A stretch of 64,000 nucleotides of DNA from Candidatus Levyibacteriota bacterium (GCA_963716145.1 OY970292.1:533171-597170); one strand, 5' to 3'; shown: positions 16,065-64,000, counted from the first letter of the stretch. Notes: generated by a model from the letters alone, not told the origin. Translations and numbers: made by a program.

Positions 16065-16263
16065 TTGTGTGAGCATTCAAACAAGCGCGTTTACCCCGCT
16101 AAGCGGGGTTAAGAAATTGTGAATGAATTGTCAGGGGGAATCCGGCTCGAAGCTGAAAGCTGAGTGGCCGAAGGGGGCGGACAATCCCCCGACAATGAAT
16201 GAAACAATTTTAGCGCGACTTTGCAGCTCACAAGCTTTTGGTTCTTTTGTCGACACAAAAGAA
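16065..16263 (+). repeat. copy A of a conserved structured element (candidate small RNA)
   Basis: About 80% identity to 53549-53711 with two indels, and a compensated terminal hairpin (gttcttttgt-cgac-acaaaagaac). A TATAAT box sits at 16056-16061 just upstream. A long-range helix pairs ttgtcaggggg with cccccgacaa. Confidence 0.55.
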
Positions 16264-16293
16264 CAACCACAATCTGCTATAATCCATCTATTC

Positions 16294-38385: not shown

Positions 38386-38958
38386 TCGCTTCACCAGGTG
38401 ATGCATCAAGGAAGGTTGACGGAATTTCTGTCTCAGGCCTCGGCTTGACTCAAGAGCTCGTCAGCTCCCCGCGATGCATCGCCTTTAGCTTTTAGCTTGC
38501 AAGGATGATCGTCCTCCTCCCTAGTTGGGAACTTTTTATGTGCCTAAAAAGCGCTAGTTCCCAACAGGGAGGGTGGATTCACTGATGTGGATTTTTCCTC
38601 GTAGAGGAGACATTTTCACATTTGTGATATTTTATTTTTTACGCGTTGCGGCTAAGCTGTTTCTGAGCAATTCGCGCTCCTTTTCACCGCTTACCGCGTA
38701 CCGTTACCCTATCCACCCTCCCTACTTCTATTTTGAGCCCCAATCAGACTTGGCGAAGCCTCGTTTGACGCGGGACTTAGAATAAAAGTATTTCATTATC
38801 TCAAAAATTACTCCTAAGCTCTGATTTATAACCACCATCTACTATCAGTACTTTGTTCCCGTTTGTAATTATTCTTATTTGCTTCTTAGCTGAAGATTTT
38901 TGACGTAGAAAAAACACCTTCATTGACATATAAGCTCCCCTATTTGTATAGTTAAATT

Positions 38959-39816: not shown

Positions 39817-40640
39817 CCCTGGCGGTGCCGGAGGAGAAGGTTGCGGTGGGCCCGGAGCAGTTGGTTCTCCCGCCTCAGGAAGTACCGGCGGTGCCGGAGG
39901 AGCTGGAGGACCAGTGTGTCTAAGCGGTGGTGCAGGTGGCACGGGTGGTATAAATGGCGGTGCCAGGAGGAGCTGGAGGACCAAAAAACGGCGCTGCCGG
40001 TGGCGCGGGTGGTACAGCCGGTGGAGGCGGTGGAGGCACGGGTCAACTTATAATTATGGGCGGAGGAGGTTCTACAAATTATGCTTATGGAGGAGGAGGT
40101 GGTGGAGGAGGCGCAGGGTACCAATGGTCTAGCTGGCGGTAAGGGTGGAAATGGTGGAGGTATGATAGTAGGTGGAGGAAGTTCTCTCAATTATATGGCA
40201 ACCGGGTCGGGTGGAGATGGAGGAGATGGAGGACATAATTCCAATGGTCCCGGTGGCAAAGGTGGAGACGGCGGGAGTGGTGGAGGTATAATAGGAGGTG
40301 GAGGAGGTTCTGTAAATCATGTATATCGTGGAGATGGGGGTAATGGCGGAAAAGGCGGGAACGGCACAGCCGGTCAGCCGGGTGGTGCTGGAGGAAATGG
40401 TGGATTTAGAAGTGGATACATTGTCGGCGGTGGAGGTAGCTCAAACTATTTTCATGTGGATGGAACTGATGGTGTAGGTGGTGCGGGAGGTGCTGGGTGC
40501 GGTGGCTTTGGTCAGCCTGCATCAGGCTCAACAGGTGGGGCTGGTGGCCCAGGATGCGAGGCGACCAACAGCAGCTTGCAGCAGCGGAAATGTCACCTGG
40601 AGTTGGACCGCCAGTACGAGTAGTCCCTCAACCCCAAATG
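39817..40640 (+). pseudogene. Gly-repeat region of the same gene, broken by at least 3 single-nt frameshifts
   Basis: Gly-rich translation hops between frames, for example ggtgccGgaggagct versus ggtgccAggaggagct at about 39965. The motif SPASGSTGGAGG(A)GGP(V)C recurs. Confidence 0.45.
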
Positions 40641-50133: not shown

Positions 50134-51165
50134 TTATCTTCTCATGATCCGGCTCCAGAAATGTTCCTTGATAAACCCAAACGTTTCCGCAGGGTCTTGC
50201 GTATTAACAATAATATTTGTACCCAATTCAAATCCGCCGATGATTTTAACTCTTGGAATCAAGCGCAAATACCAGTTTTTGCCGGGATAAATATAGAAAT
50301 TAAATGGAAATTCATGACCGTGACGCAGATCAAAAATTTGTATCAATCGAGACAAAACAAAGCTCAAATCGGTAATTTCTTCATCTTTGATGAATCCAAA
50401 CCCTCCACCGTTCTGCTTTGGTGCTATCCATGCTTCGTCCGGCCAATCACTCGTTGCGGGGCAGAAGATCAGGAAATGCTCCGTTTCCAATTTTCCATCG
50501 TCCATGTTCCACTTTCCATTTATTTCTTTATTGGACAATTTGGAAATTGAAGATTGCAAATCATTGGAAAATGGTAAATGGGAAATGGAAGATCTATTTG
50601 CTGAATCTTTTTCATAAATAGCCTGATCCAACGGAGTTATATCCAACTTAATATTGTGCGGAATCACCACCAGTTGCGTATGCGGATGTCCAAGGCTTGC
50701 GCCCGCGGATGAGCCCGAATTGTGAAAAATATAAACCCGCCCGCCCTTTTTGTGAGTATTAAACCTCTGCTTGTAAGTTTGCAGTATCAACTCAACAGCT
50801 GATAAAGGCAATTCATCAAAGCTCTTGTGATGATCCGGGGAATGAATTACAACCTCATGATTCGGAGCAAAAGGAAATTTGTTGGCTACTACTCTAACAA
50901 GCCAATTTGAGTCTTTCGGAAAACTCTGAACACTCGGTTCGCCGGATGTATCTGACGGTCTGACAATCTGAACGTCTGACCCTCCGGCTTTCTGAGGATT
51001 CTGAGTATTCTGAATTCTATAAAGTTCTTCCTCGGCAATTTCATTTCCCGGACAAAAAGGGCAAATATCCACGGCTTTTTCAACATTTGTACGATGCGAG
51101 CGCCTGGGAGCAGAAACCACCCATTTGCCGTTAATTTTATTCTGTAAAAATTTGAAATCAGCCAT
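50134..51165 (-). CDS. galT: galactose-1-phosphate uridylyltransferase (HIT family)
   Basis: Zn-binding CPFCPGNE and HPH motif (GHPHTQLVVIPH). Confidence 0.75.
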   Translation of the reverse strand: MADFKFLQNKINGKWVVSAPRRSHRTNVEKAVDICPFCPGNEIAEEELYRIQNTQNPQKAGGSDVQIVRPSDTSGEPSVQSFPKDSNWLVRVVANKFPFAPNHEVVIHSPDHHKSFDELPLSAVELILQTYKQRFNTHKKGGRVYIFHNSGSSAGASLGHPHTQLVVIPHNIKLDITPLDQAIYEKDSANRSSISHLPFSNDLQSSISKLSNKEINGKWNMDDGKLETEHFLIFCPATSDWPDEAWIAPKQNGGGFGFIKDEEITDLSFVLSRLIQIFDLRHGHEFPFNFYIYPGKNWYLRLIPRVKIIGGFELGTNIIVNTQDPAETFGFIKEHFWSRIMRR

Positions 51166-51251
51166 ATTCGAAATTAAAAACTTTATCTTTTTACAGTATA
51201 ACGCAACTATCTGAACTTGACAAAAATGTCTGTTTATAAGAAGATAATTGT

Positions 51252-53525
51252 ATGCCTGACTTGCCCACAGACAAAGACAATAAGGCAGTAGATACTGCTT
51301 TCTCCTATCCTTTTCTGAAAAGGTTTTCCAAAAAAACTCTTATTCTTATTGCGGGCTTCTTAATTCTAATTGTTATGGTAATACTTGGAGTTCTTTTATC
51401 AAAGGATTCATCTGACCAAGCCAAGCAAGCGCAAATTGATGAGCAAAACGCCAAGCTTGAAAATATAAAAAAACAAACAAATCTGCCCTCCTCCAAAGAA
51501 TCAACCAGTACAATTGTCTATGGCGCATGGACCGGCCAACAATCAGTAATAAAATCTGTTGATCTGTTATCCGGAAAATCGGTATCGATTGCTGCACTCC
51601 CGATAAATATTAAAAAAGTAAGTATCCTTTCACCAAAACAATTTGTCTATATTGACCAAACCAACGCCCAGGATCATGGAAAACAGATTGTACGCTTTGG
51701 GATAAAAGAAAAAACCTCAGAAGTTATAATTGTCTCAGATGAAGGATATGGAATTGATGATTATGTTATTTCTCCCAATAAAAGGTACATGGCTGTGTGG
51801 GAAATAGCGCTTGCACCATCATCACAAATACTTTTTGGCGGACGATCACGCGTATACGCAGTGGATCTTTTAAATCCCACCAGTAAACACCTCATATATA
51901 ATGAACTTGCCACAAGCCCGATTCACTATCCAAGAGCAATTCTCAACAATGGAAGACTCTTTACCGATAAATTTCTACCCAATGACCCAAATGGTGGAGC
52001 GGGCTGGTCATACGGAATGGGCGTTTCTGATTTTGAAGGGAAGGATAAGAAAGATCTTTCTCAAATGGAAAACGGTACATATGGTACCCAGCCTTCTATT
52101 TCCTCAAATGGAAAATTCCTTGTATTTGCAGGTTACGATGGAACTCTGGGAGATGGAAAAGCCGCAAAAGACGGTTACCGCCAAGCGATATTAAAGCCAA
52201 ACACAGTTGAACTGCTTGATACGGATACTCTCGAAAGGACAAAATTGCCAAATCTTCCCAATACCAGTACATATATCAGCGCGGACTGGGACAACATCAC
52301 AGGAAATATTCTCCTGACAATTATTCCGACAGACCCTGAAAAAACAGGTCTTTACTTTTATGACCTAACATCTCACAACACAAAGCAGATTAATATCCCT
52401 GGAAACGATCAAGCCACATACTCTTACGTTTCCACGCTATCAAACGGCAAATTTCTTATTGGAAAAGCGGATGAATCTGCCTCCAGCCTGGGAAACTTGG
52501 GAGACGGATATGCTCCATCTCTGAGTCAGCTTTTCAGCTTTGATCCCTCCGCCAATACCGCCGGAGAAATACCGATTGATAATATCTTTGTGCAGTACAT
52601 AACCACTCTTCCCCAAAACTATTTTGCAAATGTTCTAGGATTTACAGCCTACGCGGCGGCAACAACGCCGATTCCCCAACCAACATTTATTGATTTGTAT
52701 TCAGACAAAAACGCAACCAAGCAAAACCTCCAGCTTTACACTTTCCTCTTCAAACAGGATCTTACTCAAACAAGAGAAACTCAGCAGAGTACTCCTGTAG
52801 CCACGCCCACACCTACATCTGCGCCCACAATCCCTCCTCGCGGGGATGCTCCAACACGAGAGCCTTTTAAATTTCCCGAAACAATAAATTGCTGGGATCT
52901 AGCCCAGGCGCAGTGCCACACCACCAAACGCAACACCTGCGTAAAGAATGCTAGAATAAAGCTAAAAGAGCAGGGGAAATGCAACCAGTCCCCTCTTTAT
53001 CTTTACGGACAAGCCGGACAACAGGTGAAAGTTGTGATTCAAACTCCGGTACAAAATGCTATCCCCTCCTACGGAAATGGCTACGATGTGACTATTCAAG
53101 ATGCAGGTAAAATGGAAATAAAAGGACAAATTTACAATGCCATAACTTATGATTATAAATCAAACTTAAGGAGAGTCGCGGCGCCTAGGACAGGAACTAT
53201 TTCCAAATTATCAGAGGTGAGTAAAGTGCTTCAGGAGTATGCGAAAAAGCTGGGATTAAACGAGAAAGAAACAGCTGATCTAGTAAATTCCGCTAAACAA
53301 AAACTGGCCAGCCCATATATACTTATCTCCTTTTACGATCAGGCAACATCTGAGCAAATCCTTCCCTTATCGTTCTATCCGGAACCTGATAATTATCTAA
53401 ATGTTGTCTTTTACTTCAAAGAGCTTGATGAAAAACCAAACTACACCCCTATTCCGCCGGTTTTCCCGGCTCTGCTAAACCGCACCGGCCTCACAGCCGT
53501 TGAGGTGAGTGAGATTGTGGAATAA
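51252..53525 (+). CDS. large membrane-anchored / secreted hypothetical protein with beta-propeller-like repeats
   Basis: N-terminal TM anchor and TolB-like repeat patterns. 757 aa. Confidence 0.4.
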   Translation: MPDLPTDKDNKAVDTAFSYPFLKRFSKKTLILIAGFLILIVMVILGVLLSKDSSDQAKQAQIDEQNAKLENIKKQTNLPSSKESTSTIVYGAWTGQQSVIKSVDLLSGKSVSIAALPINIKKVSILSPKQFVYIDQTNAQDHGKQIVRFGIKEKTSEVIIVSDEGYGIDDYVISPNKRYMAVWEIALAPSSQILFGGRSRVYAVDLLNPTSKHLIYNELATSPIHYPRAILNNGRLFTDKFLPNDPNGGAGWSYGMGVSDFEGKDKKDLSQMENGTYGTQPSISSNGKFLVFAGYDGTLGDGKAAKDGYRQAILKPNTVELLDTDTLERTKLPNLPNTSTYISADWDNITGNILLTIIPTDPEKTGLYFYDLTSHNTKQINIPGNDQATYSYVSTLSNGKFLIGKADESASSLGNLGDGYAPSLSQLFSFDPSANTAGEIPIDNIFVQYITTLPQNYFANVLGFTAYAAATTPIPQPTFIDLYSDKNATKQNLQLYTFLFKQDLTQTRETQQSTPVATPTPTSAPTIPPRGDAPTREPFKFPETINCWDLAQAQCHTTKRNTCVKNARIKLKEQGKCNQSPLYLYGQAGQQVKVVIQTPVQNAIPSYGNGYDVTIQDAGKMEIKGQIYNAITYDYKSNLRRVAAPRTGTISKLSEVSKVLQEYAKKLGLNEKETADLVNSAKQKLASPYILISFYDQATSEQILPLSFYPEPDNYLNVVFYFKELDEKPNYTPIPPVFPALLNRTGLTAVEVSEIVE

Positions 53526-53548
53526 AAATATTTCTCTTCTTACGTTCT

Positions 53549-53711
53549 ATTGTGAGCATTCAAACAAAGCGCGTAAAGAAATTGTGAAATGAGTTGTCAG
53601 GGGGAAACTGGCCGAATGAGCCGAGGGGGTGTTATCACCCGACAACGAATGAACAATTTTAGCGTGACTTTGCGCGAACGAGTTTTTGGTTCTTTTGTCG
53701 GCACAAAAGAA
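53549..53711 (+). repeat. copy B of the conserved structured element
   Basis: Aligns to 16065-16263 with two deletions, the same long-range helix and terminal hairpin (ttcttttgt-cggc-acaaaagaa). Sits at the left boundary of a GC-richer segment. Confidence 0.55.
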
Positions 53712-54046
53712 TGAAGAAAAGTATTTTCCCCAATCTATCAATTAAAATTGGTAAATTAAAGAAAACAGGCATACAAGGACAAAAGGGTCTCCAACGGGAG
53801 GACAAACGGCGTAAAAACGCAGAAAAGTACTCGATCCGGGGGAGGATCACTCAATTGTAAAAAGACGGGAGACCGCCAAGTCCTTGTTTCCCACCGCTTG
53901 TGGTGAGTAAGTTTCCATGATGGAACGCCCTTCTTTCAAAGCTTAGAAAGCTATATCCACCTTGGGAGTCAGAAGTTCACTACACTTCCATATGAGCGTC
54001 CGATCGACACTCGACTCCCACCTCACTACTTCATTCTCAGAAGTAG

Positions 54047-54355
54047 CTATTCAGTTTTGGGCTTCGGCCTCCTCCAGAATGTCATGCTCTCGTCAAACGG
54101 CCGAGTGAGACCGTCAGAAGCTGTGGTGACGTGAGCGCGAGCGGGATCGTGCGCAAACTCCACCTTGGAGACCTGCAGGAGGTCTTCCCCGACTTTGACG
54201 TAGTCTTCTGCCTGGGCATCTTTAAGATCAACCTGGACCATTCCATACATCTGAATCATTCCTCTCGTAGTCTGGTATGCGTAGTACCCTACCTGGGAGT
54301 CCGAGAACTCATGTCTCGACAGATATGGCGACTCCCGCCGCGAATGTAACTGCAC
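54047..54355 (-). CDS. hypothetical protein (GC-rich island)
   Basis: 102-aa ORF, co-directional with and contiguous to two other small minus-strand ORFs. Confidence 0.3.
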   Translation of the reverse strand: MQLHSRRESPYLSRHEFSDSQVGYYAYQTTRGMIQMYGMVQVDLKDAQAEDYVKVGEDLLQVSKVEFAHDPARAHVTTASDGLTRPFDESMTFWRRPKPKTE

Positions 54356-54381
54356 CAGGAACCCACGATGGGGCTACCTAG

Positions 54382-54609
54382 TTAAAGCCAGGGCGGATAT
54401 ACTTCCACTATTAAGATGAAGCTTGTGGAGTCGTCTCGCCTGTAGCAGGACGTTTTCTCCGACAGTGTGAGTTGCCCGGAACAGGTGGTGACGATGGTTT
54501 CTCCACCGCTTCGATCTATCGATGTGACCTTTTCGAGCCAGCCACCGCCGACTGCGATGTAGTCACCCTTCTGGCACTCGGTCCAGGGAATAGGTTGTAG
54601 AACCAACAT
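54382..54609 (-). CDS. hypothetical protein (GC-rich island)
   Basis: 75-aa ORF. Confidence 0.3.
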   Translation of the reverse strand: MLVLQPIPWTECQKGDYIAVGGGWLEKVTSIDRSGGETIVTTCSGQLTLSEKTSCYRRDDSTSFILIVEVYPPWL

Positions 54610-54636
54610 TGCTGCTTCTCCTCTCTCAGCGCGGAT

Positions 54637-54852
54637 CTACCGCTTCGGGTGGCACTGCGGGCATCGCCCGTCATGCCATATTTTGTGTTGACGACACTTG
54701 TACAGAGGGTTCTTCTTCGTTACCACTTTGGCCGTGCGCGTCCTTTCAGACGACGGCGTTGTAGAAACAGAGGCTTGCCGAGCCTTTTCTGCGGCTGCTT
54801 TTAGAGCTGCCGCTGATGGCCTCTGGTTTTTACGAGCATTCCTGTCAGGCAT
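54637..54852 (-). CDS. small basic protein with C-terminal zinc ribbon (CRQH...CPQC)
   Basis: 71-aa ORF. GGAGG ribosome-binding site upstream. Confidence 0.35.
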   Translation of the reverse strand: MPDRNARKNQRPSAAALKAAAEKARQASVSTTPSSERTRTAKVVTKKNPLYKCRQHKIWHDGRCPQCHPKR

Positions 54853-54873
54853 CTGTACGTTTCCTCCGTTTCG

Positions 54874-54999
54874 TTATGCAAGGACAAAGACGACCAGCAC
54901 CACGACCACTACGATCGCAGCGATTATGAGCAAGATGGCCCGCATGAGCCACTTGGGCACCTCTGCAAAACCCATCTCGTCAGGATCAGAAATGAACAT
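54874..54999 (-). CDS. 41-aa single-TM peptide (holin-like)
   Basis: Not in the track (under 60 aa). MFISDPDEMGFAEVPKWLMRAILLIIAAIVVVVVLVVFVLA. AAGGGGG ribosome-binding site. Directly precedes the zinc-ribbon gene on the minus strand. Confidence 0.3.
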   Translation of the reverse strand: MFISDPDEMGFAEVPKWLMRAILLIIAAIVVVVVLVVFVLA

Positions 55000-55555
55000 T
55001 TTCACCCCCTTTCCGAGGCTAGTAGATTGCCGAACTACATCCGGCTCCTACCTTCACTTGTTTTCCCCGCAGCCTACGAATAGGTACACAAAGTATCCAA
55101 AGCCGAGGCATAGAAGGACCACGATGGTTACCGCGATCCCTTGCATTACTGCTGTTCCAATCACTGTGCTCACCTCCTCTCTTTCCCAATCTGGGATTCC
55201 AGGGGGCAAATTTTGCCCGCTCGAAACCCAAATTGGGAATTTGAAGAGAATAAATTTCTAAGCTAAAATCTTGTATGCCTTGTTAAAGAACATCTGCTTA
55301 CTAAATTACGGTATAGCAAAACAGATTTTGCAGCAAAAGATAAAATTCAGACCGCATTTGGCCTCAATTTTTCCTGTTTGCAAGAGTGGAGTCTAGCAGA
55401 AAAAGCAGTTTTTATCAATACTATGAGGCGCAAATTGACCTAACTATTTGAGCTTTGTGAGCGTAGTATAAAAAGCAGTTGAGGTAAGTAAGATTGTTGA
55501 GTAAAGCTTTCCTGGCGTCTTAGCTATTTTTGAGACTGGGGAATTAATGGTCTGC

Positions 55556-55942
55556 CTAAGCTCTTCTGCGTACTTGCAATCGCGGTGTCTCCACGACCTC
55601 AATTCCTGCTTCTGCAAGAGCACGCCGAAGTGGATCGTCAGGATCACTTCCCAAAATTCGGGCAAAACCGGGACGTAGCTCAACGACTTTTGGTGTAGGC
55701 CGACGAGGATCATAACGGGTGGGGTCGGTTGAACCCGCCACTACAAATTCAGGTCCTATGAGGCCATTTCTTCCCCGAGAAACATACGTGGTAACACTTA
55801 CCACAACCTTGGGATCGTCAAGTGTAGTTGGTTCTGCTGTATATGGATAATTAGTTACTACTTTCTCAACATCTACTGCTCTCACCTCTGTTCCAACAGG
55901 CACCACTCCGTCTGGACCAATGAAACTCTCTAGCCTTGCCAT
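55556..55942 (-). CDS. hypothetical protein (GC-rich island)
   Basis: 128-aa ORF. Confidence 0.3.
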   Translation of the reverse strand: MARLESFIGPDGVVPVGTEVRAVDVEKVVTNYPYTAEPTTLDDPKVVVSVTTYVSRGRNGLIGPEFVVAGSTDPTRYDPRRPTPKVVELRPGFARILGSDPDDPLRRALAEAGIEVVETPRLQVRRRA

Positions 55943-56133
55943 ATGAATCAGATAATATTCGAATTTCCCTTACTTATCAACAATTAAAAGTATTAAATCG
56001 CGCTGCGCTAATTTTTGCATACTCAAATCTTTACTTAACCACTAATTTCACAAAATCAGTCAAGGATAAAGAAAATTTATTTATTACTTTCTGCTTGCGA
56101 AAATATATCAAAACAACTATAATCCCAATTATT

Positions 56134-57453
56134 ATGGGGCGAAGAGGTAATGAAGGAGATTTGATTAGTCCAATAAATCCAGGGGGTGGTTTCTCGCGCA
56201 GGCGATTCTTGGAGGGTGCTGGAGCATTGGTGGCTTCTGCTGCCGGTCTCGGGGCTTTGGGTTCTCAGGATTCGGGCCGGCAAGACACCCAATGGGCATT
56301 AGAAAGAATGTTCCAGGTGGATCCAAAGGAATGGCGTGTGACTTTAAACCCACCTCTCAAAAGACCATCAACCTTTGTACTTGCTGCTGGAGAGGGAAAC
56401 CAATTAACCTCCGCTCCCCTTGCGCATACACGATTGACCAGCTCTTTTAATCAGCCCGATGATACTTACCCCGGGGCACCTGTTATTACTGAGAGGGATG
56501 TTGAGATACTGGCACCTCTTTATCCGGCTAACAAACCAACAATTACTGTCAAAACTGATGGACCGCCTATTGTGAAAGAAATCGCATTAGAAGCATACAG
56601 ATATGATGAGTATGGGAGACGGCTTATGGGAGAAGACATTGGAGTTAATGTGTATGGCTCAAGGCCTGTCCTCGTTAGTCCTGTGGAACTGGAGAGAGAA
56701 TCTGGCATGGTTTTAAGACAAGTTCTTAATACAACGCAGGAAGTATTCCGACCATTTAAGGGTTTATGGAATTCTGGACGTGGGGCTTTTGATACATATG
56801 TAGTTCCGGGATCTAATCAAGTTCACACGGGAGCCGACGGCGATGTAATATTTTTGGGTCTTAAGACTATCACGGAACCAGCGTACGAACAGCAAGCTGA
56901 GATTGAAACATTTGCAGCAACTTCAGAGGCAGTTTTTTCTTCACAATTTGAGGCTATGAATCTAAAACCTGCTACCGCTGAACTTGTGACAAAAGTAACC
57001 TCACAGTGGAAGGGAGTAAGGGCGGATAGTGTCGGCAAAAGAGATTTGTCAGCTATAGAGAAGCTATTTGCAAAAGGAACTTATACAGGGGGAGCAGTTT
57101 TAGGAGGTGACTCCGCCCACTTTGCTGATAGTTATAACTATAATGCCTCTAATACAAGACTCTTTGCTGACGCACTGACAATAATGCGTTTTTTTCCTTC
57201 TCAATTAGCACGCGGTGTAGAAGCTCTACCAACGGAGTTGGATAAAAGCATAGCGCGGGACAGACTTAATGCGACCCTCTTGGTATTAGCCGATGGCTAT
57301 AATTACCCGGATAAACATATTTTGTTGGGTCATTTGAAATCTCTAATTTATAATATACAACCCCTGGAAGAAAGACTCGGACTGATACCAGTAAGTAAAA
57401 GCAATCAAGATAATCTAAGCCTTAATCAAACTAGACACCATCCTACAGCTTAG
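56134..57453 (+). CDS. Tat-signal hypothetical secreted protein
   Basis: MGRRGNEGDLISPINPGGGFSRRRFLEGAGALVASAAGLGAL twin-arginine signal. TATAAT at 56118-56123. The start is moved to an internal ATG. Confidence 0.45.
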   Translation: MGRRGNEGDLISPINPGGGFSRRRFLEGAGALVASAAGLGALGSQDSGRQDTQWALERMFQVDPKEWRVTLNPPLKRPSTFVLAAGEGNQLTSAPLAHTRLTSSFNQPDDTYPGAPVITERDVEILAPLYPANKPTITVKTDGPPIVKEIALEAYRYDEYGRRLMGEDIGVNVYGSRPVLVSPVELERESGMVLRQVLNTTQEVFRPFKGLWNSGRGAFDTYVVPGSNQVHTGADGDVIFLGLKTITEPAYEQQAEIETFAATSEAVFSSQFEAMNLKPATAELVTKVTSQWKGVRADSVGKRDLSAIEKLFAKGTYTGGAVLGGDSAHFADSYNYNASNTRLFADALTIMRFFPSQLARGVEALPTELDKSIARDRLNATLLVLADGYNYPDKHILLGHLKSLIYNIQPLEERLGLIPVSKSNQDNLSLNQTRHHPTA

Positions 57454-57459
57454 GCTTAC

Positions 57460-58257
57460 TCAGTGAGGCTTTTGAAAACGTTCCCTGAATACTAATCTAA
57501 CAAACTCAATCAAGGCTAGTTGGCGTTTCCAGCGCCATGGTTCCTTTACTAGGCGGAACAGCCATTCAAATCCAATTGCTCTTATTATAAATGGTGCACG
57601 CGTAGCTTCACCGCTGATATAATCAAACGCCCCACCGACCCCCATTGCCGCTTTCACCGGCAGCTTTTCCAGATTTTTGTAAATCCACTCCTCTTGCTTT
57701 GGATGACCAAAGGCAACGAAAAGCAAATCAATAGATTTATGATTTAAGAAATAAGATTTAGGATCTCTAGAAATGCTATTATTCTTTAATCTTAAATCTT
57801 TAATCTTATCTCTCTCATTTAAATTAGCTGAGTCTTCCCCCCACTCCTCGGCAACATACACAATATTCAAGTTGGGATACTTCCGCAGCAAGCGCTCGGC
57901 TGTTTTATCTGCCACTCCTCTTCTTCCTCCGAGAATGCCTATGGATGCGCCCATTCTTACACTTTTCTTACAAAGAATTTCCATAAAATCTATACCCGGA
58001 ATACGCTCTTTAAAGGGTGTTAGCATCAAAATACTGGCCAAAAATAGCCCAGTTCCGTCAGGAATCGCGATTTCAGCCTCATTCAAAATCTTTTTATACG
58101 CGGGATTTTTTGCGGAATATACCAGAATTTCGGGGTTTGGTGTAGCAATAAAAAGCTTTTTTTTGCTATTTTTTAGGGATTGCAGTATGTACTCTGAGAT
58201 TTCCTCTTCCGTTTCGTTGGTAATTCCAACTCCAAGAATATTACTTTTTTTTAACAT
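57460..58257 (-). CDS. WecB/TagA/CpsF-family glycosyltransferase
   Basis: Family pattern (ILGVGITN...KKKLFIATPNPEILVYS...IPDGTGL). Confidence 0.65.
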   Translation of the reverse strand: MLKKSNILGVGITNETEEEISEYILQSLKNSKKKLFIATPNPEILVYSAKNPAYKKILNEAEIAIPDGTGLFLASILMLTPFKERIPGIDFMEILCKKSVRMGASIGILGGRRGVADKTAERLLRKYPNLNIVYVAEEWGEDSANLNERDKIKDLRLKNNSISRDPKSYFLNHKSIDLLFVAFGHPKQEEWIYKNLEKLPVKAAMGVGGAFDYISGEATRAPFIIRAIGFEWLFRLVKEPWRWKRQLALIEFVRLVFRERFQKPH

Positions 58258-58589
58258 ATTTCACAAATGACTATAAACATAAAATTTAAAATGTAAAACT
58301 CAAAAAATGATTCATTTGTATACAAATCATATGCAAAAATTAGCTACAAAATTTGCGCTCTAGCTTGAAAAATATGTAAAAAATTGTGATAATTCATTTT
58401 TAGTATTATATCACCTTATAACTTGTGAAATCTACTTTATATTTTTGATTACAAACAATTTAATAGTCAACTCTTGCTCCAACTACAAGCCTTATTTTCC
58501 ATTTACCACTTTCCATCTGTCATTAATTGTCAATTTTAAAATTTCCCGATCGATAAATAAATGGAAAATGATAAATGGTCAATGGAAAA

Positions 58590-59615
58590 TTATTTCTTAT
58601 TTATCGACCGTTTGTACAGTTCTATATTTTCCATAGCTACGCCAGTCCCCCGCGCTACGCACAACAAGGCATCCTCAGCCACATGGCACGGGACTCCTGT
58701 TAGCTCAGTCATGAGCTTATCAAGGTTGGTTAAAAGCGAACTTCCTCCTGACATCACAATTCCTTTATCAATTATGTCACTTGCCAATTCCGGCGGGCAT
58801 TGCTCAAGAACTTCTTTGACCCCTTTTACCACTTCAAGAAGCGTCGGCTTAATGGCTTCATTTATTTGCGTCTCATCCAGAATAATCGTCCTTGGCAATC
58901 CGGTAATATTATCCCGTCCCCGGACCTCCATTGACTTGGGCTTATGAGCAGTAGACACAACAGCATTTCCTATTTCTATCTTTATGGTTTCAGCTGTTGT
59001 CTCCCCAATCAGCAAATTAAATTTCTTTTTTGTATATCCTGCAATAGCTTCATCAATCTTGTTGCCTGCGACTCGTACTGAGCTATGCACGACCACTCCG
59101 CCAAGTGAAATAACAGCTGACTCGGTAGAACCGCCTCCTATATTGACAATCATGTGTCCCGCAGCCTGAGCGATTGGTATCTTGGCTCCAATCGCAGCTG
59201 CCAGAGGCTCATCAATCAGATAAGCGATCTTGGCTCCTGCCGACATAGTCGCGTCCAACACAGCACGCCGCTCAACCTGAGTAACGCCTGAGGGTATGCA
59301 GACCATAACTTCAGGCTTGAAAAAGCGGGCTCTGCCGCAAACTTTGTCTATAAAGTAGGAAAGCATTGCCTCTGTTATCGTATAATCAGCAATCACACCG
59401 TCTCTTAACGGACGCAAGGCCGTTACATTGCCGGGGGTCCTGCCCAGCATTTCTTTGGCCTCATGCCCCACAGCAACCACCCTATTTTCCTCAGCTGTGA
59501 CAGCAACCACAGTCGGCTCATTCAAGATAATCCCTTCGCCAACTACATAAACTAATGTATTAGCTGTACCGAGATCTATTCCTATTCTTTTTGTTGTTGG
59601 TAGCTTAAACTGCAT
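58590..59615 (-). CDS. mreB: rod-shape-determining protein MreB
   Basis: IGIDLGTANTLVYV actin-fold motifs. 341 aa. Confidence 0.9.
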   Translation of the reverse strand: MQFKLPTTKRIGIDLGTANTLVYVVGEGIILNEPTVVAVTAEENRVVAVGHEAKEMLGRTPGNVTALRPLRDGVIADYTITEAMLSYFIDKVCGRARFFKPEVMVCIPSGVTQVERRAVLDATMSAGAKIAYLIDEPLAAAIGAKIPIAQAAGHMIVNIGGGSTESAVISLGGVVVHSSVRVAGNKIDEAIAGYTKKKFNLLIGETTAETIKIEIGNAVVSTAHKPKSMEVRGRDNITGLPRTIILDETQINEAIKPTLLEVVKGVKEVLEQCPPELASDIIDKGIVMSGGSSLLTNLDKLMTELTGVPCHVAEDALLCVARGTGVAMENIELYKRSINKK

Positions 59616-59642
59616 AAAAAATTCAGAAAACTCAGATTAAAC

Positions 59643-59987
59643 TCAGTAAACCAGATATTCAGACGGTCTGACTATCTGACATTTCAGAAACTCTGGTAAA
59701 CTGAGTGTTCCGAGAGTTCTGAAATCTATATCAAACCACTGTATTTCTATATCATTTCTGACTACAGGCGTATCTAGCTTTATTATACCAATACCCGAAT
59801 TAGTTGCAAGGGTTAGTTTGAAAGGGTATGCCACTCCGCTATTCAATATCTGTTTGGCATACCTCCGAAGCTTTAGGTAATAAATTCGACCCAAAGTATT
59901 ACTTAAAATCAAAGCTACGTAGGCATTACCCCTTTTAATTTTGTAAGCGTAGGGGTATAATTGCAAAACAGCCAAATGAAAAAACAA
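59643..59987 (-). CDS. hypothetical protein
   Basis: 114-aa ORF upstream of mreB. Confidence 0.2.
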   Translation of the reverse strand: MFFHLAVLQLYPYAYKIKRGNAYVALILSNTLGRIYYLKLRRYAKQILNSGVAYPFKLTLATNSGIGIIKLDTPVVRNDIEIQWFDIDFRTLGTLSLPEFLKCQIVRPSEYLVY

Positions 59988-61364
59988 ACTAAATCACCCA
60001 AGGCGCAATCCAAGCGACTTAAATCGAATAAAAACCAGGATACTAATTCAACCTCTTCTTCAGCTAAAAGACAATTATTTGTTTCCTCAGCGATTTTACT
60101 TTTTTTGATCCTTGGAACTATTCTTACTGTATTCTATGCTCGCGGATATAGATTTGTTTTTGGCGGGGGTGAGCCCAAACTTTCAAAAACAGGCATTCTG
60201 AACGTCACAAGTGTGCCCCAAGGAGCTCAGGTTTCCCTGGATAATCACCCAACCACGGCCACAGATAACTCAATTAATCTTGCTCCCAATAAATACACCG
60301 TAAGGATTAGCAAAGACGGCTACAATGATTGGCAAAAAGATGTTGATATAAGACAGGAAGAAGTTACCAATATAGATGCGCGGCTCTTTCCAAAAGCCCC
60401 AACGCTTCAAAGTATCTCAACTTTTGGAGTTGAACAGGCACTGGTAGATCCAACAGGCACTAAGTTGGCCTTCAAAATCGCCTCTCAATCCGCAAAGAAA
60501 AACGATGGGATATATATTTTTGATATGACCCAACGCCCCCTACCCATTCTTCAAGGCCAAAGCAGCTCCAATCAGCTAGCTGATGACAGCATTGATAGAT
60601 TCTCGAAGGCTTCGCTTTCCTTTTCGCCTGATGGTAAACAGCTTCTCGCCAGTATTTCAGCAGTTACGGAAGCTGCCAATCCTGAAGATCCCCTAGCTGA
60701 ACCTATCTTACAGCCTGAACTCTCCACTTACTACCTTCTTAAAACTGACGGATTTAATGATGTTCCGCAGGATACAACTGCGATAATTGATACGGTTTTT
60801 GAAACGTGGAAGGCCCAGCGCGCAGCCAAGGAAAAAGCAAGACTAAAGTCACTCAAACCAAAGATTGCCGAATTTAGTAAAAAGAATTTCAATATTCTTT
60901 CCTGGTCACCTGACGAAAAAAAGATCCTCTACCAGGCATCCTCCTCGGCCCAGATGCCGGTATTTATCAACCCCCGAAGAATCGGAAATAATTGGCGATA
61001 CGAGAGGCGTGACCTTAAAAAAGGAGCAATTTATGTCTATAATATTACGGAAGATCTCAATACAAGAATTGTTGACAGCATTGATGCAATTTGTACTGAT
61101 GAAGAATCAAGTTGCATTGGCGAAAATTCTACTCTGGGAAAGAATCCTTTTAGCTGGTTTCCTGATTCAGAGCACCTTATATATGTGCGGGATCGCAAGA
61201 TTAACCTTGTTGAGATAGATGGTTCCAATATGACGACTGTTTACGCCGGACCGTTTGTTGATCCTTATGTTTTTCCCTGGCCTGATGAATCTAAAATCGT
61301 AATACTTACAAATCTCGGAAACCCAACGGTGTCTCCTACCCTATACACAATAGGACTAAAATAG
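59961..61364 (+). CDS. PEGA-domain membrane-anchored protein with beta-propeller-like C-terminus
   Basis: TM anchor. PEGA pattern (ILNVTSVPQGAQVSLDN...YTVRISKDGYNDWQKDV). Confidence 0.5.
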   Translation: MQNSQMKKQTKSPKAQSKRLKSNKNQDTNSTSSSAKRQLFVSSAILLFLILGTILTVFYARGYRFVFGGGEPKLSKTGILNVTSVPQGAQVSLDNHPTTATDNSINLAPNKYTVRISKDGYNDWQKDVDIRQEEVTNIDARLFPKAPTLQSISTFGVEQALVDPTGTKLAFKIASQSAKKNDGIYIFDMTQRPLPILQGQSSSNQLADDSIDRFSKASLSFSPDGKQLLASISAVTEAANPEDPLAEPILQPELSTYYLLKTDGFNDVPQDTTAIIDTVFETWKAQRAAKEKARLKSLKPKIAEFSKKNFNILSWSPDEKKILYQASSSAQMPVFINPRRIGNNWRYERRDLKKGAIYVYNITEDLNTRIVDSIDAICTDEESSCIGENSTLGKNPFSWFPDSEHLIYVRDRKINLVEIDGSNMTTVYAGPFVDPYVFPWPDESKIVILTNLGNPTVSPTLYTIGLK

Positions 61365-61894
61365 ATCAAAAGGTAAATAAAGATATCAACAAATCTTATT
61401 CTATAAACCAGAAATATAAAAGATTAAATCCGCAAATAATCCGCTTTTAATTCTCCTCATCTGTCTTATTGATTTTTACAGTAAAGGTTCTTTGTTTGAT
61501 AATATAAAATTTTAATTTTAATAAAAATTAAATTCCTCAAATTTACAATCTTTTGTGAAAAAACGGTTGTGAAAAATAGAAAAAACACGGCATTTTTTCA
61601 TCAAAAATCCCAAACGTATTTGCCTGATTCTTATTATTAATTACTTCACAGGGGCAAAATTTGAATAATTGAGGCTAAAATACGTGAAAATAATTGAAAA
61701 CATAATGTGAACAAAAAATCAATTTATGTCTTGACAAACTTATTAATATATGTAGTAATTAATATATAGACAAAGTTGGACATCAAAGTTGGACTAGTAC
61801 AACTTTACAAAGAGCTAAGAACAGTGAACAAATAATTAAGATTTTCTCAGCTTTAAGTTCAAAATTTTAAGTATTTTAAAAATTCCTGCCCATT

Positions 61895-64000
61895 ATGACT
61901 ACCGATAAAAAGAAAGTAAAAAATTCTAAAGAGATAGTTGAGAAAGAGACGATGCCACTTGCGAGTAAATCATCTGATTCCTCTTTCAAAAAAAAGACTG
62001 ATAAAAATAAACAACGAGAGACTTCCCAAAAGGAAAACGCACAAGAGGCAGTTACGTTTACTATCCAGCAGGCCGCAGATCAATTGGGACTTTCCACCAA
62101 AACCCTCAGGCGCTGGGAAGAAAAAGGGATCATAAAAGCTCAAAGAACAGCGGGAAATCAGAGACGCTATACCTTATTGGACGTTGAAAGATTACAACCA
62201 AGAGTAAAAAAACTCTCTTCTCAACAATTTTCAAACATAGCTGAAATCCGAAACCCAAATAGCCAATTGTATCTAGAAAGCTCTTTTTCAAATGAATCTA
62301 ATCCAATAAACTCTAATGTAGAAAGAGTTAATTCACCTCCATTCAGTAAAAACACGACACGGCGTACTTTTGGTGCTGACCCAAAGGTTGGTACTAATAA
62401 TAGTTATGTCCAAGTTTCAAGAGTTGGACAAGATGATAATGTCCAAGATTTGAAAATTTCGCATAAGAGTAAGTTCAAACAAAGTACGGCACTTCTTGGG
62501 GTATTCGCAATCGTAATAATCAGCATGATTTTTTTATCCTCCCCCCACATCGCGGGAGAAACGAACAGGAGAATATTTTCTGTCCTGATTGGCAGTCTCA
62601 ATAAAGAACAGGGCGATTACCAATCAAATGTGCTATCTCCTGGAGTTCTCTCGGATACTATAAAGCTCAAAGGAATGAAGGGAGAGATAAGTTTTAACAT
62701 CCCCGCGATCTTCAATAGCAACTTAAGAGTAAACGGAGACACACTTCTCAATGGCAATGCAACAGTCTCAGGAACATTGACTGCTCCAAATATAGTTTAT
62801 AGTGTCATACCAGGTCAAAATATATCAATTTCCGGTGATCCCCAGAATCCGACAATCTCTACAGGCCCAATTGTCACCTCCTTTGCCGGCAAAACAGGAG
62901 ATCTTAAGCTGTCTGCGGGAACCGGAATAAATGTAAGTGATCTTGAAATAAGTATGAAAAATACTTCTCTGACTGTCGAGGCGGGAAGTGGCCTTTCCGG
63001 CGGAGGAAAAGTTGAGCTTGGCGGCTCAATATCGCTTGAGAATGCTGGTGTTATTTCATTGGCAGGGACGGCAAATCAAGTTCTTGTTTCGGTATCAACA
63101 GGAGACGTAACTCTTTCGCTTCCACAGGATATTGATTTGAGCTCATCCCCTACTTTTTCCAGTATTAATCTGACCAGCAATACTAATCAACTGGTTCTGG
63201 GAAGTGGCAATACCGGGACACTTACTCTCGGCACACTTACAGCAGATCGGACTTATACTTTACCAGATCTTAATGCATCAAATGACACTATTTGTTTGGC
63301 TGCTCTAGCCAATTGTTCAGGCGGGTCAGGAGGTATTGGAGGCGCGGGCACAATCAATCGGGTAGCAAAGTTCACTGCTTCCAATTTGATTGGCAACTCA
63401 AGCATAAACGACCTTGGCTCAGCAGTCGCAATGACTATAGATGCATCAGGCAACGTGGGGATTGGCACCACTACACCAACATCCTTTAAACTCGAAGTCG
63501 CAGGCAATGTAGGTCCTGAAGCTGATAACACCAGGGACTTGGGATCAGCAAGCAAAAGATGGGCAAATATTTATGGTACAAATGTCATCGCAAGCAATCT
63601 AAGTGGTGCAATCACTCCAACCGGCTTTACTCCAGGTTCCGTAGTGTTCGCAGGCTCAGGTGGTACTCTGACGCAGGACAATGCCAACTTCTTCTGGGAT
63701 GATACTAATAACAGGCTTGGGATAGGAATAACCACTCCGACCTCATCGCTGGTTGTCCAGGGTATTACTGGTAATTCCACAGCTGAATTTATAACAACTG
63801 AAAATGCCAATAGAAGACTTGTTGAGATCAGAAATTATAGCAATGGTACGGCGGGGGCGACCCGGCTGGGCATAATTAACGATGCTGGGACCGGCATGGA
63901 CATTACAGCATATGGAAGTGGCAATACCGGAACTTTTGCAGGCCTTTCTCTTGCCAACACGGTTCGTGTCAGTTCTAGTACTGCCCTTGTTCTTTATGCC
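61895..64000 (+). CDS. membrane-anchored MerR-type HTH protein with extracellular tail-fibre-like repeats (3' partial, runs off the window)
   Basis: Not in the track because there is no stop in the window. The frame is open for more than 700 codons. N-terminal MerR HTH (FTIQQAADQLGLSTKTLRRWEEKGIIKAQRTAGNQRRYTLLDVERL). TM ALLGVFAIVIISMIFL. Then repeated GNVGIGTTTPTS...L.V.G motifs. Confidence 0.55.
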   Translation, partial: MTTDKKKVKNSKEIVEKETMPLASKSSDSSFKKKTDKNKQRETSQKENAQEAVTFTIQQAADQLGLSTKTLRRWEEKGIIKAQRTAGNQRRYTLLDVERLQPRVKKLSSQQFSNIAEIRNPNSQLYLESSFSNESNPINSNVERVNSPPFSKNTTRRTFGADPKVGTNNSYVQVSRVGQDDNVQDLKISHKSKFKQSTALLGVFAIVIISMIFLSSPHIAGETNRRIFSVLIGSLNKEQGDYQSNVLSPGVLSDTIKLKGMKGEISFNIPAIFNSNLRVNGDTLLNGNATVSGTLTAPNIVYSVIPGQNISISGDPQNPTISTGPIVTSFAGKTGDLKLSAGTGINVSDLEISMKNTSLTVEAGSGLSGGGKVELGGSISLENAGVISLAGTANQVLVSVSTGDVTLSLPQDIDLSSSPTFSSINLTSNTNQLVLGSGNTGTLTLGTLTADRTYTLPDLNASNDTICLAALANCSGGSGGIGGAGTINRVAKFTASNLIGNSSINDLGSAVAMTIDASGNVGIGTTTPTSFKLEVAGNVGPEADNTRDLGSASKRWANIYGTNVIASNLSGAITPTGFTPGSVVFAGSGGTLTQDNANFFWDDTNNRLGIGITTPTSSLVVQGITGNSTAEFITTENANRRLVEIRNYSNGTAGATRLGIINDAGTGMDITAYGSGNTGTFAGLSLANTVRVSSSTALVLYA

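What the first reader, a model, noticed from the sequence alone, without database searches (positions are those of the whole stretch)
53712..57453. GC-richer (about 50%) island with small minus-strand genes and a Tat-secreted protein, bordered by structured-element copy B
Immediately after repeat copy B the composition shifts. Five or six short co-directional minus-strand ORFs follow, including a 41-aa single-TM holin-like peptide with an AAGGGGG ribosome-binding site and a CxxC zinc-ribbon protein. A divergent Tat-signal protein gene follows. Plus-strand ORFs here look like noise. This resembles a degraded prophage or integrative remnant.
Basis: seen in the sequence. Interest (0 to 1): 0.55.

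Follow-up and report, generated by a model that had tools for sequence, protein, structure and literature searches.

The report
Small foreign DNA insert, no integrase
A 2-kb piece of foreign DNA sits at the end of a surface-protein gene in a tiny-genome Levybacteria (CPR) bacterium. It carries five tiny orphan genes and a copy of an unnamed structured RNA, and it looks like a decayed or non-autonomous integrative element, which is a fairly ordinary kind of thing.

Summary
The host is a Candidatus Levyibacteriota genome of about 41.5% GC.

The foreign unit is about 53527-55505 (1,979 bp). It is bracketed by an imperfect 32-nt direct repeat (27/32). The left copy is the last 9 codons plus stop of the 757-aa gene. 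The right copy is a displaced duplicate of that gene end.

The unit holds structured-RNA copy B, a structured 3' UTR and five minus-strand mini-genes of 36, 41, 71, 75 and 67 aa. It also holds a 75-nt palindrome that covers the first ribosome-binding site.

- The five genes have GC3 of 0.56-0.67, against 0.34-0.44 in neighbouring host genes.
- All five have Shine-Dalgarno (SD) sites, against 3 of 45 host genes.
- None has a credible sequence homologue in any database searched.
- Two of them fold confidently as the same SH3-like barrel seen in many small uncharacterised phage proteins.

The two closest relatives with this locus, L002 and L004, join the 757-aa gene directly to the Tat-signal gene. 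The Tat gene is therefore resident, not island cargo. The 128-aa gene lies outside the repeat and has host-like codon usage.

There is no integrase and no phage hallmark gene. The best reading is a decayed or non-autonomous integrative element that supplied a surrogate gene end, as e14 does at icd. Cargo function is unknown. "Holin" is unsupported.

The parts
53495..53526 (+). Left direct repeat (attL-like). It is the last 9 codons plus stop of the 757-aa gene (..AVEVSEIVE*).
   Evidence: family D1; 27/32 match to 55474-55505; 0 of 2000 shuffles exceeded 21 matches; the only other hit in the window with at least 22 of 32 matches; C-terminus identical to the L004 orthologue.
53552..53715 (+). 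Structured ncRNA copy B. It belongs to a Levybacteria-specific RNA family that is not in Rfam.
   Evidence: CM R1 gives 144 bits, E 6e-29. Nineteen covarying pairs against 8.4+-2.0 in shuffles, 0/500. No Rfam match. It is 79% identical to copy A at 16069-16267.
53714..54046 (-). Structured non-coding tail (3' UTR) of the minus-strand operon. It ends in a long hairpin (about 53724-53767) followed by a U-run.
   Evidence: dG -114 kcal/mol, z -4.81. Terminator-like sites are listed.
54047..54250 (-). o67, a 67-aa protein predicted to be a small SH3/Tudor-like beta-barrel (the ORF is 102 aa if read from GTG 54355).
   Evidence: AGGA lies 8 nt before the ATG. GC1/2/3 is 0.63/0.38/0.63. AF2 pLDDT 83.6. 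BFVD matches to small phage proteins. Singleton cluster.
54382..54609 (-). o75, a 75-aa protein with the same beta-barrel topology as o67. I read the two as structural paralogues.
   Evidence: GAGGAG SD. GC3 0.62. AF2 pLDDT 76. Foldseek on PDB and BFVD. An exhaustive phmmer over 1.84 billion representatives gave only a spurious repeat-protein hit.
54637..54852 (-). o71, a 71-aa basic protein with a C-terminal CxxH...CxxC zinc-ribbon-like motif.
   Evidence: GGAGGA SD. It matched only itself among 5.8 billion proteins. No Pfam or PHROG family.
54874..54999 (-). o41, a 41-aa peptide with one C-terminal transmembrane segment.
   Evidence: AAGGGGGTGA SD. GC1/2/3 is 0.62/0.26/0.67. Singleton.
55054..55164 (-). 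o36, a 36-aa single-TM peptide (GTG start; the mechanical ORF of 51 aa starts inside the palindrome).
   Evidence: GAGGAGGTGA lies 6 nt before the GTG. Sequence reading.
55174..55248 (.). A 75-nt imperfect palindrome at the head of the operon. As minus-strand RNA, its 3' arm pairs with the SD of o36.
   Evidence: I1 (37-nt arms, 78% complementary); dG -46.3 kcal/mol, z -5.75.
55390..55418 (-). Promoter-like site (TTGATA, 17 nt spacer, TG-TAGACT) for the operon.
   Evidence: This is a consensus match only.
55474..55505 (+). Right direct repeat (attR-like). It is a displaced fragment of the 757-aa gene's 3' end (AVEVSKIVE*), preceded two codons upstream by a stop.
   Evidence: Four of the five differences from the left copy are synonymous (my reading of the two sequences).
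55556..55942 (-). o128, a 128-aa orphan gene. It is outside the insert, host-adapted, and absent from relatives.
   Evidence: GC3 0.32. It has no SD and has TATTAT 9 nt before the ATG. No homologue found.
56134..57453 (+). Tat-signal 439-aa protein. It is a resident gene shared with the nearest relatives and is not part of the insert.
   Evidence: L002 48%, L004 39%, same position next to WecG. GC3 0.34. TIGR01409 16.5 bits.

Best explanation
**Shown**
- About 2 kb (roughly 53527-55505) of foreign DNA lies between a lineage-specific 757-aa membrane/surface protein gene and its usual neighbour.
- The insert is bracketed by a 32-nt imperfect direct repeat that duplicates the 3' end of the 757-aa gene.
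- The gene-attached copy keeps the reading frame intact and encodes the consensus C-terminus. The distal copy is a 10-codon orphan fragment.

**Inferred**
- A circular element carried an attP that mimics the end of this gene. It integrated by site-specific recombination into that 3' end and supplied a surrogate end, as prophage e14 does at icd/icdC.
- Its recombinase is now missing. The element has either decayed to a cis-mobilizable (CIME-like) remnant, or it was always non-autonomous.

**Cargo**
- One Levybacteria-type structured small RNA gene.
- One operon of five SD-led mini-genes from a donor with higher GC that uses SD sites: two single-TM peptides, a basic zinc-ribbon protein and two SH3-like barrels of a type common among small phage proteins.

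**Speculative**
- The strong hairpin that occludes the SD of the first membrane peptide resembles the translational locks of type I toxin genes. Such a module could help so small a remnant persist.
For: **Repeat.**: 27/32 matches, 0 of 2000 shuffles above 21, and the only other match in the 64-kb window with at least 22 of 32.

**Divergence pattern.** Four of the five differences between the copies are synonymous third-position changes. This fits two functional gene ends rather than in-situ decay (my estimate, roughly p = 0.016).

**Empty site in relatives.** In L002 the distance from the 757-aa gene's stop to the Tat gene's called start is at most 122 nt. In L004 it is 51 nt. None of 82 related loci has any of the ORFs.

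**Orthology.** The window's 757-aa gene groups with the Tat-adjacent copies in L002 and L004 at 51-56% identity. The second L002 paralogue is an outgroup at 44-49%.

**Foreign signature.**
- GC3 is 0.56-0.67 against 0.34-0.44 in neighbouring host genes. Across all long ORFs in the window, the 64-74% GC segment aside, GC3 is mostly 0.26-0.45.
- SD motifs precede 5 of 5 island genes against 3 of 45 host genes. My Fisher estimate is about 3e-5.

**The genes are real.** Each has an SD at correct spacing. AF2 single-sequence pLDDT is 76 and 84, with the same strand order in both.

**Assembly.** An independent Logan assembly covers both junctions (L084 = 50152-53907 at 100%; L001 = 53919-63705 at 99.97%).

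**Precedents.** e14/icd-icdC (PMC13626634). CIME definition (PMC5704250).
Against: - There is no integrase or other recombinase in or next to the insert, and no full-length relative of the element was found anywhere.
- The repeat is only 84% identical, and the longest identical run is 8 nt (GTTGAGGT). No crossover core can be proven.
- The insert is a mosaic. RNA copy B is closest to the host's own copy A (79%) and belongs to a Levybacterial family. The ORF cluster uses SD sites and high GC3, unlike Levybacteria. One event from one donor does not explain both easily.
- Only one genome, and probably one sample, carries it, so no polymorphism or excision evidence exists.
- The fold matches to phage proteins are weak (none at E <= 1e-3), and the fold is generic.
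Confidence: 0.6

Rival explanations
1. Replacement of a tandem paralogue. The ancestor had two tandem 757-aa genes, as L002 does. Foreign DNA replaced the body of the second one and left only its last 32 nt.
For: L002 has two tandem paralogues (757 and 762 aa) upstream of the Tat homologue. The 1,979-bp spacing is close to one gene length (about 2.3 kb).
Against: The window's gene is the orthologue of the Tat-adjacent copy (55% to L2b and L4, 49% to L2a), so the missing copy would have to be an extra one. L004 has a single copy. No other collinear trace of a 757-aa gene remains in 53526-56133, even at E = 100. An in-frame stop lies two codons upstream of the fragment.
Confidence: 0.1
2. A functional accessory module rather than junk. 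On this reading the five-gene operon is a retained phage-derived moron, or a type I toxin-antitoxin-like or exclusion module, and its function explains why it persists.
For: All five ORFs are intact, with SD sites and 21-131 nt spacers. A -46 kcal/mol hairpin covers the SD of the first, 36-aa, hydrophobic peptide. There are two peptides under 45 aa with one TM segment each. The fold class is common in small phage proteins.
Against: No PADLOC, Pfam, PHROG or NCBIfam hit. No antisense RNA was demonstrated. The host rarely uses SD sites, so expression is uncertain. There is no conservation data with which to show selection.
Confidence: 0.2
3. Native fast-evolving genes. On this reading the region is not foreign, and its GC reflects amino-acid bias in lineage-specific genes.
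For: This does hold for the 128-aa gene. Its GC1 is 0.68 but its GC3 is 0.32, its start is leaderless in the host style, and it lies outside the repeat. The whole WecG-GalT interval varies among Levybacteria.
Against: For the five-gene cluster, GC3 is 0.56-0.67 and all five have SD sites, unlike 42 of 45 host genes. The cluster lies inside a repeat that duplicates a gene end.
Confidence: 0.05
4. Assembly chimera, or a non-coding GC-rich structured RNA rather than genes.
For: MAG-type data are involved. The Logan assembly breaks at 53908-53918, inside the insert. The 53714-54046 segment is strongly structured.
Against: Both insert/host junctions lie inside contigs of a second assembly at 100% and 99.97% identity. 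Rfam finds nothing. Codon-position GC, the SD sites and confident protein folds argue for coding.
Confidence: 0.05

Closest known systems
Cryptic prophage e14 (and phage 21) integrated in the 3' end of icd in E. coli K-12
   Same: The element sits in the 3' end of a protein-coding gene. The gene stays intact because the element supplies a similar but not identical replacement end. A displaced C-terminal fragment (icdC there, the AVEVSKIVE* fragment here) marks the far end (PMC13626634).
   Different: e14 is 15 kb and has its own integrase and excisionase and a longer duplicated segment. This insert is 2 kb, has no recombinase, and duplicates only 32 nt.
CIMEs (cis-mobilizable elements) of streptococci
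   Same: They are defined as elements that have lost their integration and transfer genes but keep attL and attR, often at the end of a target gene (PMC5704250). This insert has flanking repeats and no integrase.
   Different: CIMEs are recognised because related ICEs or IMEs with integrases exist at the same att site. No such relative is known here, and mobilisation is untested.
Type I toxin-antitoxin loci (hok/sok, tisB/istR type)
   Same: A hydrophobic peptide under 60 aa whose SD is buried in a very stable mRNA hairpin. Such loci are often carried on prophage or plasmid remnants. This comparison rests on my own knowledge.
   Different: No antisense RNA was identified. Here the peptide gene heads a five-gene operon. 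There is no sequence similarity and toxicity is untested.
Small uncharacterised SH3/Tudor/KOW-like beta-barrel proteins of tailed phages (BFVD entries such as Arthrobacter phage Joann A0A0U4B3Z1 and Aeromonas phage 4L372D A0A5B9N903)
   Same: Same size (60-75 aa) and fold. TM-scores are mostly 0.5-0.7 for both o75 and o67, and their hit lists overlap.
   Different: No match reaches E <= 1e-3 and sequence identity is 5-27%. The fold is generic and the matched proteins have no known function.

Membership tests
Prophage / degraded prophage | Phage hallmark genes (capsid, terminase, portal, tail, replication) or PHROG family membership | tested here: not met
   No credible PHROG match: one weak hit, o71 to an unknown-function family at E 0.042. 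No tblastn hit in 50,697 phage records. No IMG/VR relatives for o128, o75 or o67.
Prophage / degraded prophage | Integrase adjacent to an att site | tested here: not met
   No recombinase-like protein was found among the ORFs of 53527-56133 that were tested (Pfam, NCBIfam).
Integrative element with att duplication (e14/icd type) | Direct repeats flank the element, and one of them is the functional 3' end of the target gene | tested here: met
   53495-53526 against 55474-55505, 27/32, 0 of 2000 shuffles. The ORF is intact to the consensus C-terminus.
Integrative element with att duplication (e14/icd type) | An empty site in relatives at the same position | tested here: met
   L002 and L004 join the 757-aa gene to the Tat gene with short spacers: at most 122 nt to the called start in L002, and 51 nt in L004.
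Integrative element with att duplication (e14/icd type) | Excision and circularisation, or an identical crossover core | not testable with these tools
   Raw reads are needed. The longest identical run in the repeat is 8 nt.
CIME (cis-mobilizable element) | attL and attR retained while integration and transfer genes are lost | tested here: met
   The repeats are present and no recombinase or transfer gene was found.
CIME (cis-mobilizable element) | Derived from, and mobilisable by, a related ICE or IME that uses the same att site | tested here: inconclusive
   No related element was found in genome, metagenome or viral collections. The absence may reflect sparse sampling.
Holin / lysis cassette | A small TM protein with a charged C-terminal tail, next to an endolysin gene | tested here: not met
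   o41 ends inside its TM segment (..VVFVLA*). There is no endolysin or any enzyme domain in the cluster.
Type I toxin-antitoxin | A hydrophobic peptide under 60 aa with a structurally occluded SD | tested here: met
   o36 has a single TM segment. The hairpin (dG -46.3, z -5.75) pairs with its SD. This is a prediction only.
Type I toxin-antitoxin | A cis- or trans-encoded antisense RNA antitoxin, and toxicity | not testable with these tools
   There is only a consensus promoter-like site on the plus strand at 55241-55269.
Tat-secreted protein as island cargo | The gene is absent from relatives and compositionally foreign | tested here: not met
   It is syntenic in L002 and L004. GC3 is 0.34. 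It has a host-style TATAAT-ATG start.
Known anti-phage defence systems (PADLOC) | A match to any PADLOC protein model | tested here: not met
   no family at E <= 0.1 for any of the 8 proteins.

The most novel reading that the evidence does not exclude
The 2-kb unit may be an intact member of an undescribed class of tiny integrase-less mobile elements of CPR bacteria, not a dead remnant. On this reading its own structured RNA (the R1 family, which occupies shifting intergenic positions and occurs in 1-2 copies in the loci where it was found) takes part in targeting or mobility. The five SD-led mini-proteins would be its working gene set.
Probability: 0.06. Interest if true: 0.75.

Novelty: new member of a known kind. 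Interest (0 to 1): 0.33.

Why it matters
Mobile DNA of CPR/Patescibacteria is poorly known. This is a cleanly delimited example of foreign DNA entering a 1.1-Mb Levybacteria genome at the 3' end of a protein-coding gene, with the gene end preserved.

The contrast in translation signals gives a simple, reusable marker for foreign genes in this lineage. All island genes are SD-led, while the host hardly ever shows an SD and often carries a TATAAT-like box just upstream of the start codon, which suggests leaderless starts. The contrast also raises the question of whether such genes are expressed at all.

The insert drew attention to an unnamed, strongly covarying RNA family of about 170 nt that is specific to Levybacteria. 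That RNA may be the more interesting object.

The cargo itself consists of orphan genes with no assignable function, so the finding's direct biological weight is modest.

Tried and rejected
**Searches that led nowhere**
- I sent all six small proteins as one concatenated query to the search for homologous proteins. It returned nothing, not even the proteins themselves, which are in the database. I treat that result as uninformative, not as a negative.
- tblastn of concatenated proteins against the phage and plasmid collections found no match.
- The search for related loci with o128 in genomes, viral contigs and metagenomes gave one hit. It is a 41-aa stretch inside a RibBA gene (L083), which I judge to be a chance motif.
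- The exhaustive phmmer of o75 gave one hit at E 2.4e-4. The hit is a 590-aa repeat protein whose score sums four weak repeats. I rejected it as spurious.
- PDB sequence searches gave only insignificant hits. For o128 the best hit was ribosomal protein S16 at E 0.36.

**Ideas tested and dropped**
- BLASTP finds no similarity between o75 and o67. I infer paralogy only from their identical predicted strand order and overlapping fold hits.
- I checked whether other copies of the RNA are also followed by a repeat of the upstream gene's end. Only copy B is.
- A pattern scan of IMG/VR for the RNA core found no hits.
- I looked for complementarity between the RNA and the repeat, as for a bridge RNA. 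The only match is 12 of 15 nt in a conserved part of the RNA, which is not significant by my estimate.
- I considered an inovirus or satellite remnant (tiny TM proteins plus small barrels). There is no Zot-type ATPase or replication gene and no dif-like site, so I dropped it.
Full report
**Host and setting**

The window averages 41.5% GC. MreB, WecG and PEGA-domain genes next to the finding have their best matches in Candidatus Levyibacteriota MAGs. An exact-sequence look-up places the locus on a 1,142,061-bp NCBI contig.

A separate Logan assembly of run ERR11593400 gives two contigs. L084 equals window 50152-53907 at 100% identity. L001 equals 53919-63705 at 99.97% identity. Both insert/host junctions discussed below therefore lie inside contigs of a second assembly.

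**Checking the observation**

The GC rise is real but patchy.
- 53950-55210 is 53.2% GC.
- 55500-55800 is 50-52% GC.

The minus strand carries a tight cluster of five small ORFs and, further on, a 128-aa ORF. I refined the starts from the ribosome-binding sites:

| Gene | Coordinates (minus strand) | Size | Start context |
|---|---|---|---|
| o36 | 55054-55164 | 36 aa | GTG, GAGGAGGTGA upstream |
| o41 | 54874-54999 | 41 aa | AAGGGGGTGA upstream |
| o71 | 54637-54852 | 71 aa | GGAGGA upstream |
| o75 | 54382-54609 | 75 aa | GAGGAG upstream |
| o67 | 54047-54250 | 67 aa | AGGA upstream |

- By my reading of the sequences, o36 and o41 are each a single hydrophobic helix.
- o71 is basic and ends in CRQH...CPQC.
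- The codon-position GC of the five ORFs has the usual coding shape (GC1 above GC2, high GC3).
- The 187-aa plus-strand ORF opposite them does not have that shape.
- The divergent gene starts at ATG 56134 (439 aa). It has an SRRRFL motif that scores 16.5 bits on TIGR01409 against a cut-off of 16.7.

**What relatives show**

The Tat-signal protein has only two entries among 5.8 billion proteins: itself, and a 48%-identical protein from GCA_040384225.1.

In that genome (L002) the gene order is GalT, a Tat paralogue, a regulator, a 757-aa gene, a 762-aa gene, the Tat homologue, WecG, MreB, PEGA. In L004 the order is GalT, p757, Tat, WecG, MreB, PEGA.
- In L004 the stop of the p757-family gene is 51 nt from the Tat start.
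- In L002 it is at most 122 nt from the called Tat start.
- In the window the same two genes are 2,608 nt apart.
- None of 82 related loci (1.3 Mb) encodes any of the six small ORFs.

So the Tat gene is resident, shared with the nearest relatives, and has host-like GC3 of 0.34. It is not island cargo. The small ORFs are private to this genome.

The WecG-GalT interval varies in length across Levybacteria in general. In L003 a 159-aa gene and the end of a DDE transposase follow WecG. The insert therefore lies in a plasticity zone.

**The boundary repeat**

A repeat search of 53300-56400 found that 53495-53526 recurs at 55474-55505, with 27 of 32 bases identical.
- Left copy: AGCCGTTGAGGTGAGTGAGATTGTGGAATAAA. 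This is the last nine codons and stop of p757 (AVEVSEIVE*).
- Right copy: AGCAGTTGAGGTAAGTAAGATTGTTGAGTAAA (AVEVSKIVE*).
- No shuffle of the downstream 2.6 kb exceeded 21 matches in 2000 trials.
- No other site in the window reaches 22 matches.
- A stop codon lies two codons upstream of the right copy.
- Nothing else in 53526-56133 resembles a p757 gene, even at E = 100.
- The left copy encodes exactly the C-terminus of the L004 orthologue.
- Four of the five differences are synonymous third-position changes. That looks like two gene ends that each evolved under selection, not like decay of an in-situ duplicate (my estimate, about p = 0.016).

This is the architecture of prophage e14 at icd. 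There the gene runs into the prophage, and a C-terminal fragment pseudogene, icdC, marks the other end (PMC13626634).

The alternative is that the fragment is what remains of a second tandem paralogue. That is weakened because the window's p757 groups with the Tat-adjacent copies (55% to L2b and L4), while L2a is an outgroup at 44-49%.

**Independent signs that 53527-55505, and only that, is foreign**

- GC3 of the five clustered genes is 0.56-0.67. Neighbouring host genes have 0.34-0.44. The 128-aa gene has 0.32, despite 50% overall GC.
- Across the window's long ORFs, GC3 is mostly 0.26-0.45, apart from a separate 64-74% GC segment at about 37.6-38.5 kb.
- Translation signals differ sharply. 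Of 45 host genes, 3 have any SD-like motif at the annotated start.
- Only 6 of the 45 have a strong SD before any in-frame start in the first 50 codons.
- About a third of the host genes (15 of 45) carry a TATAAT-like box within 18 nt of the start codon. These include p757, the Tat gene, PEP carboxylase and the 128-aa gene.
- All five clustered genes have SD sites. My Fisher estimate for the contrast is about 3e-5.

The 128-aa gene is thus host-adapted and lies outside the repeat. It is a separate lineage-specific orphan.

**Anatomy of the insert**

From left to right:
1. The left repeat.
2. Structured-RNA copy B (53552-53715, plus strand).
3. A 333-nt non-coding stretch. It folds strongly as minus-strand RNA (z -4.8) and ends in a long hairpin plus a U-run next to the RNA gene.
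4. The five genes.
5. A 75-nt palindrome at 55174-55248. As minus-strand RNA it has dG -46.3 kcal/mol and z -5.75, and its 3' arm pairs with the SD of o36.
6. An AT-rich stretch (35% GC) with a promoter-like site at 55390-55418.
7. The right repeat.

There is no recombinase, replication or structural gene.

**The cargo proteins**

Pfam, PHROGs, PADLOC and NCBIfam give nothing credible.
- o71 matches only itself in 5.8 billion proteins.
- o75 has no true hit among 1.84 billion representatives.
- The called proteins are singleton clusters.

Even so, AlphaFold2 without an alignment folds o75 (pLDDT 76) and o67 (pLDDT 84) with the same strand order.

Foldseek places o75 among SH3/Tudor/KOW-like barrels in the PDB, with a best E of 0.2. 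In BFVD, both proteins match overlapping lists of 60-75-aa uncharacterised phage proteins. Many of those come from phages of Actinobacteria. E-values run from 2e-3 to 1e-1, with TM-scores mostly 0.5-0.7.

This supports real, phage-style small proteins. It does not assign a function.

**The RNA**

Copy B and copy A (16069-16267, between a GHMP kinase gene and an archaeal-type PEP carboxylase gene) belong to a family also found in L044, in L070 and twice in L040.
- A covariance model finds six copies in 1.33 Mb.
- 19 of 44 pairs change on both sides, against 8.4+-2.0 in shuffles (0/500) and at most 6 in slid controls.
- The core UCAGGGGGA...GGGGGUG..AUCACCCGA is invariant or nearly so.
- Rfam 15 has no match, and a core pattern is absent from IMG/VR.
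- Its genomic position differs between genomes.
- By my reading of the sequences upstream of the copies, most copies have a -10-like box just upstream, so it is probably an independent small RNA gene.
- Only copy B is associated with a gene-end repeat.
- Copies A and B are each other's closest relatives at 79% identity.

**Interpretation**

*Shown.* A 2-kb insert has foreign codon usage and foreign translation signals. It is bracketed by a duplicated gene end and is absent from the syntenic site of relatives.

*Inferred.* The insert arrived by site-specific integration of a circular element whose attP mimics the p757 3' end. The recombinase was then lost, or the element was never autonomous. 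This matches the definition of a CIME (PMC5704250).

*Speculative.* The occluded SD before a 36-aa membrane peptide recalls type I toxin loci, and such a module could stabilise the remnant.

*Unexplained.* The insert is a mosaic. It combines a Levybacteria-type RNA closest to the host's own copy with an ORF cluster that looks as if it came from an SD-using donor of about 55% GC. A single donor does not explain both easily.

**Verdict**

The finding is real and the 'integrative remnant' idea is broadly right. The limits, the role of the Tat gene and the holin label are wrong.

It is a new, orphan example of a known kind of object. Interest is modest. The unnamed RNA family and the SD-versus-leaderless contrast are the parts most worth following up.

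Noticed in passing
window 16069-16267 and 53552-53715; L040 541-714 and 4552-4727; L044 5405-5572; L070 8318-8495: An unnamed structured RNA family of about 165-200 nt, specific to Levybacteria. It has a rod-like stem series, an invariant apical core (UCAGGGGGA...GGGGGUG..AUCACCCGA) and a 3' hairpin. Nineteen pairs covary (0/500 shuffles). It has no Rfam match. It occurs in 1-2 copies in the loci where it was found, at shifting intergenic positions.
   Followed up: partly
window 37600-38450: An 850-bp stretch of 64-74% GC in a 41.5% GC genome. ORFs are open in several frames. The most protein-like is 37751-38269 (172 aa, GC3 0.76), with an actinobacterial-style signal peptide and an Ala/Pro-rich body and no Pfam match. 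It looks like a second, more extreme foreign fragment. Gly-rich repeat protein genes follow it at 38959-40600.
   Followed up: partly
whole window (45 long ORFs): Host genes almost never have a Shine-Dalgarno motif (3 of 45). About a third (15 of 45) have a TATAAT-like box within 18 nt of the start codon, for example 56113-56133 before the Tat gene and 16274-16293 before PEP carboxylase. This suggests widespread leaderless or non-SD initiation in this Levybacterium.
   Followed up: partly
window 55556-55942: A 128-aa orphan gene with host-like codon usage that is absent from L002, L004 and all other relatives. Its C-terminal 40 residues weakly resemble ribosomal protein S16 (PDB E 0.36) and the C-terminal motif of GTP cyclohydrolase II (L083). 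Neither resemblance is significant.
   Followed up: partly
window 51252-53525 and 56134-57453; L002 3170-11140; L004 6699-10271: The 757-aa membrane-anchored protein and the Tat-signal protein form a two-gene module restricted to a few close Levybacteria. L002 has two copies of each partner. Neither protein has a Pfam family.
   Followed up: partly
L003 7040-7732: In L003, which is the closest relative by its PEGA protein, a 159-aa gene and the 3' end of a DDE (rve-type) transposase follow WecG in place of the Tat/757-aa module. The WecG-GalT interval is therefore a plasticity zone.
   Followed up: no
window 56214 and 56221; 54362: The only differences between the window and the Logan contig L001 are three single-base indels. 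Two of them are a compensating pair inside the Tat signal-peptide coding region. The third lies in the non-coding spacer between o75 and o67, just upstream of the alternative 102-aa GTG start at 54355.
   Followed up: no
L044 5723-6388; L040 2780-3446 and 5497-6157: HigB/HigA-like and VapBC-like toxin-antitoxin pairs lie next to the RNA copies in two relatives. I identified them by eye from the ORF translations, not by a family search. This hints that the RNA tends to sit in variable, mobile-DNA-rich neighbourhoods.
   Followed up: no
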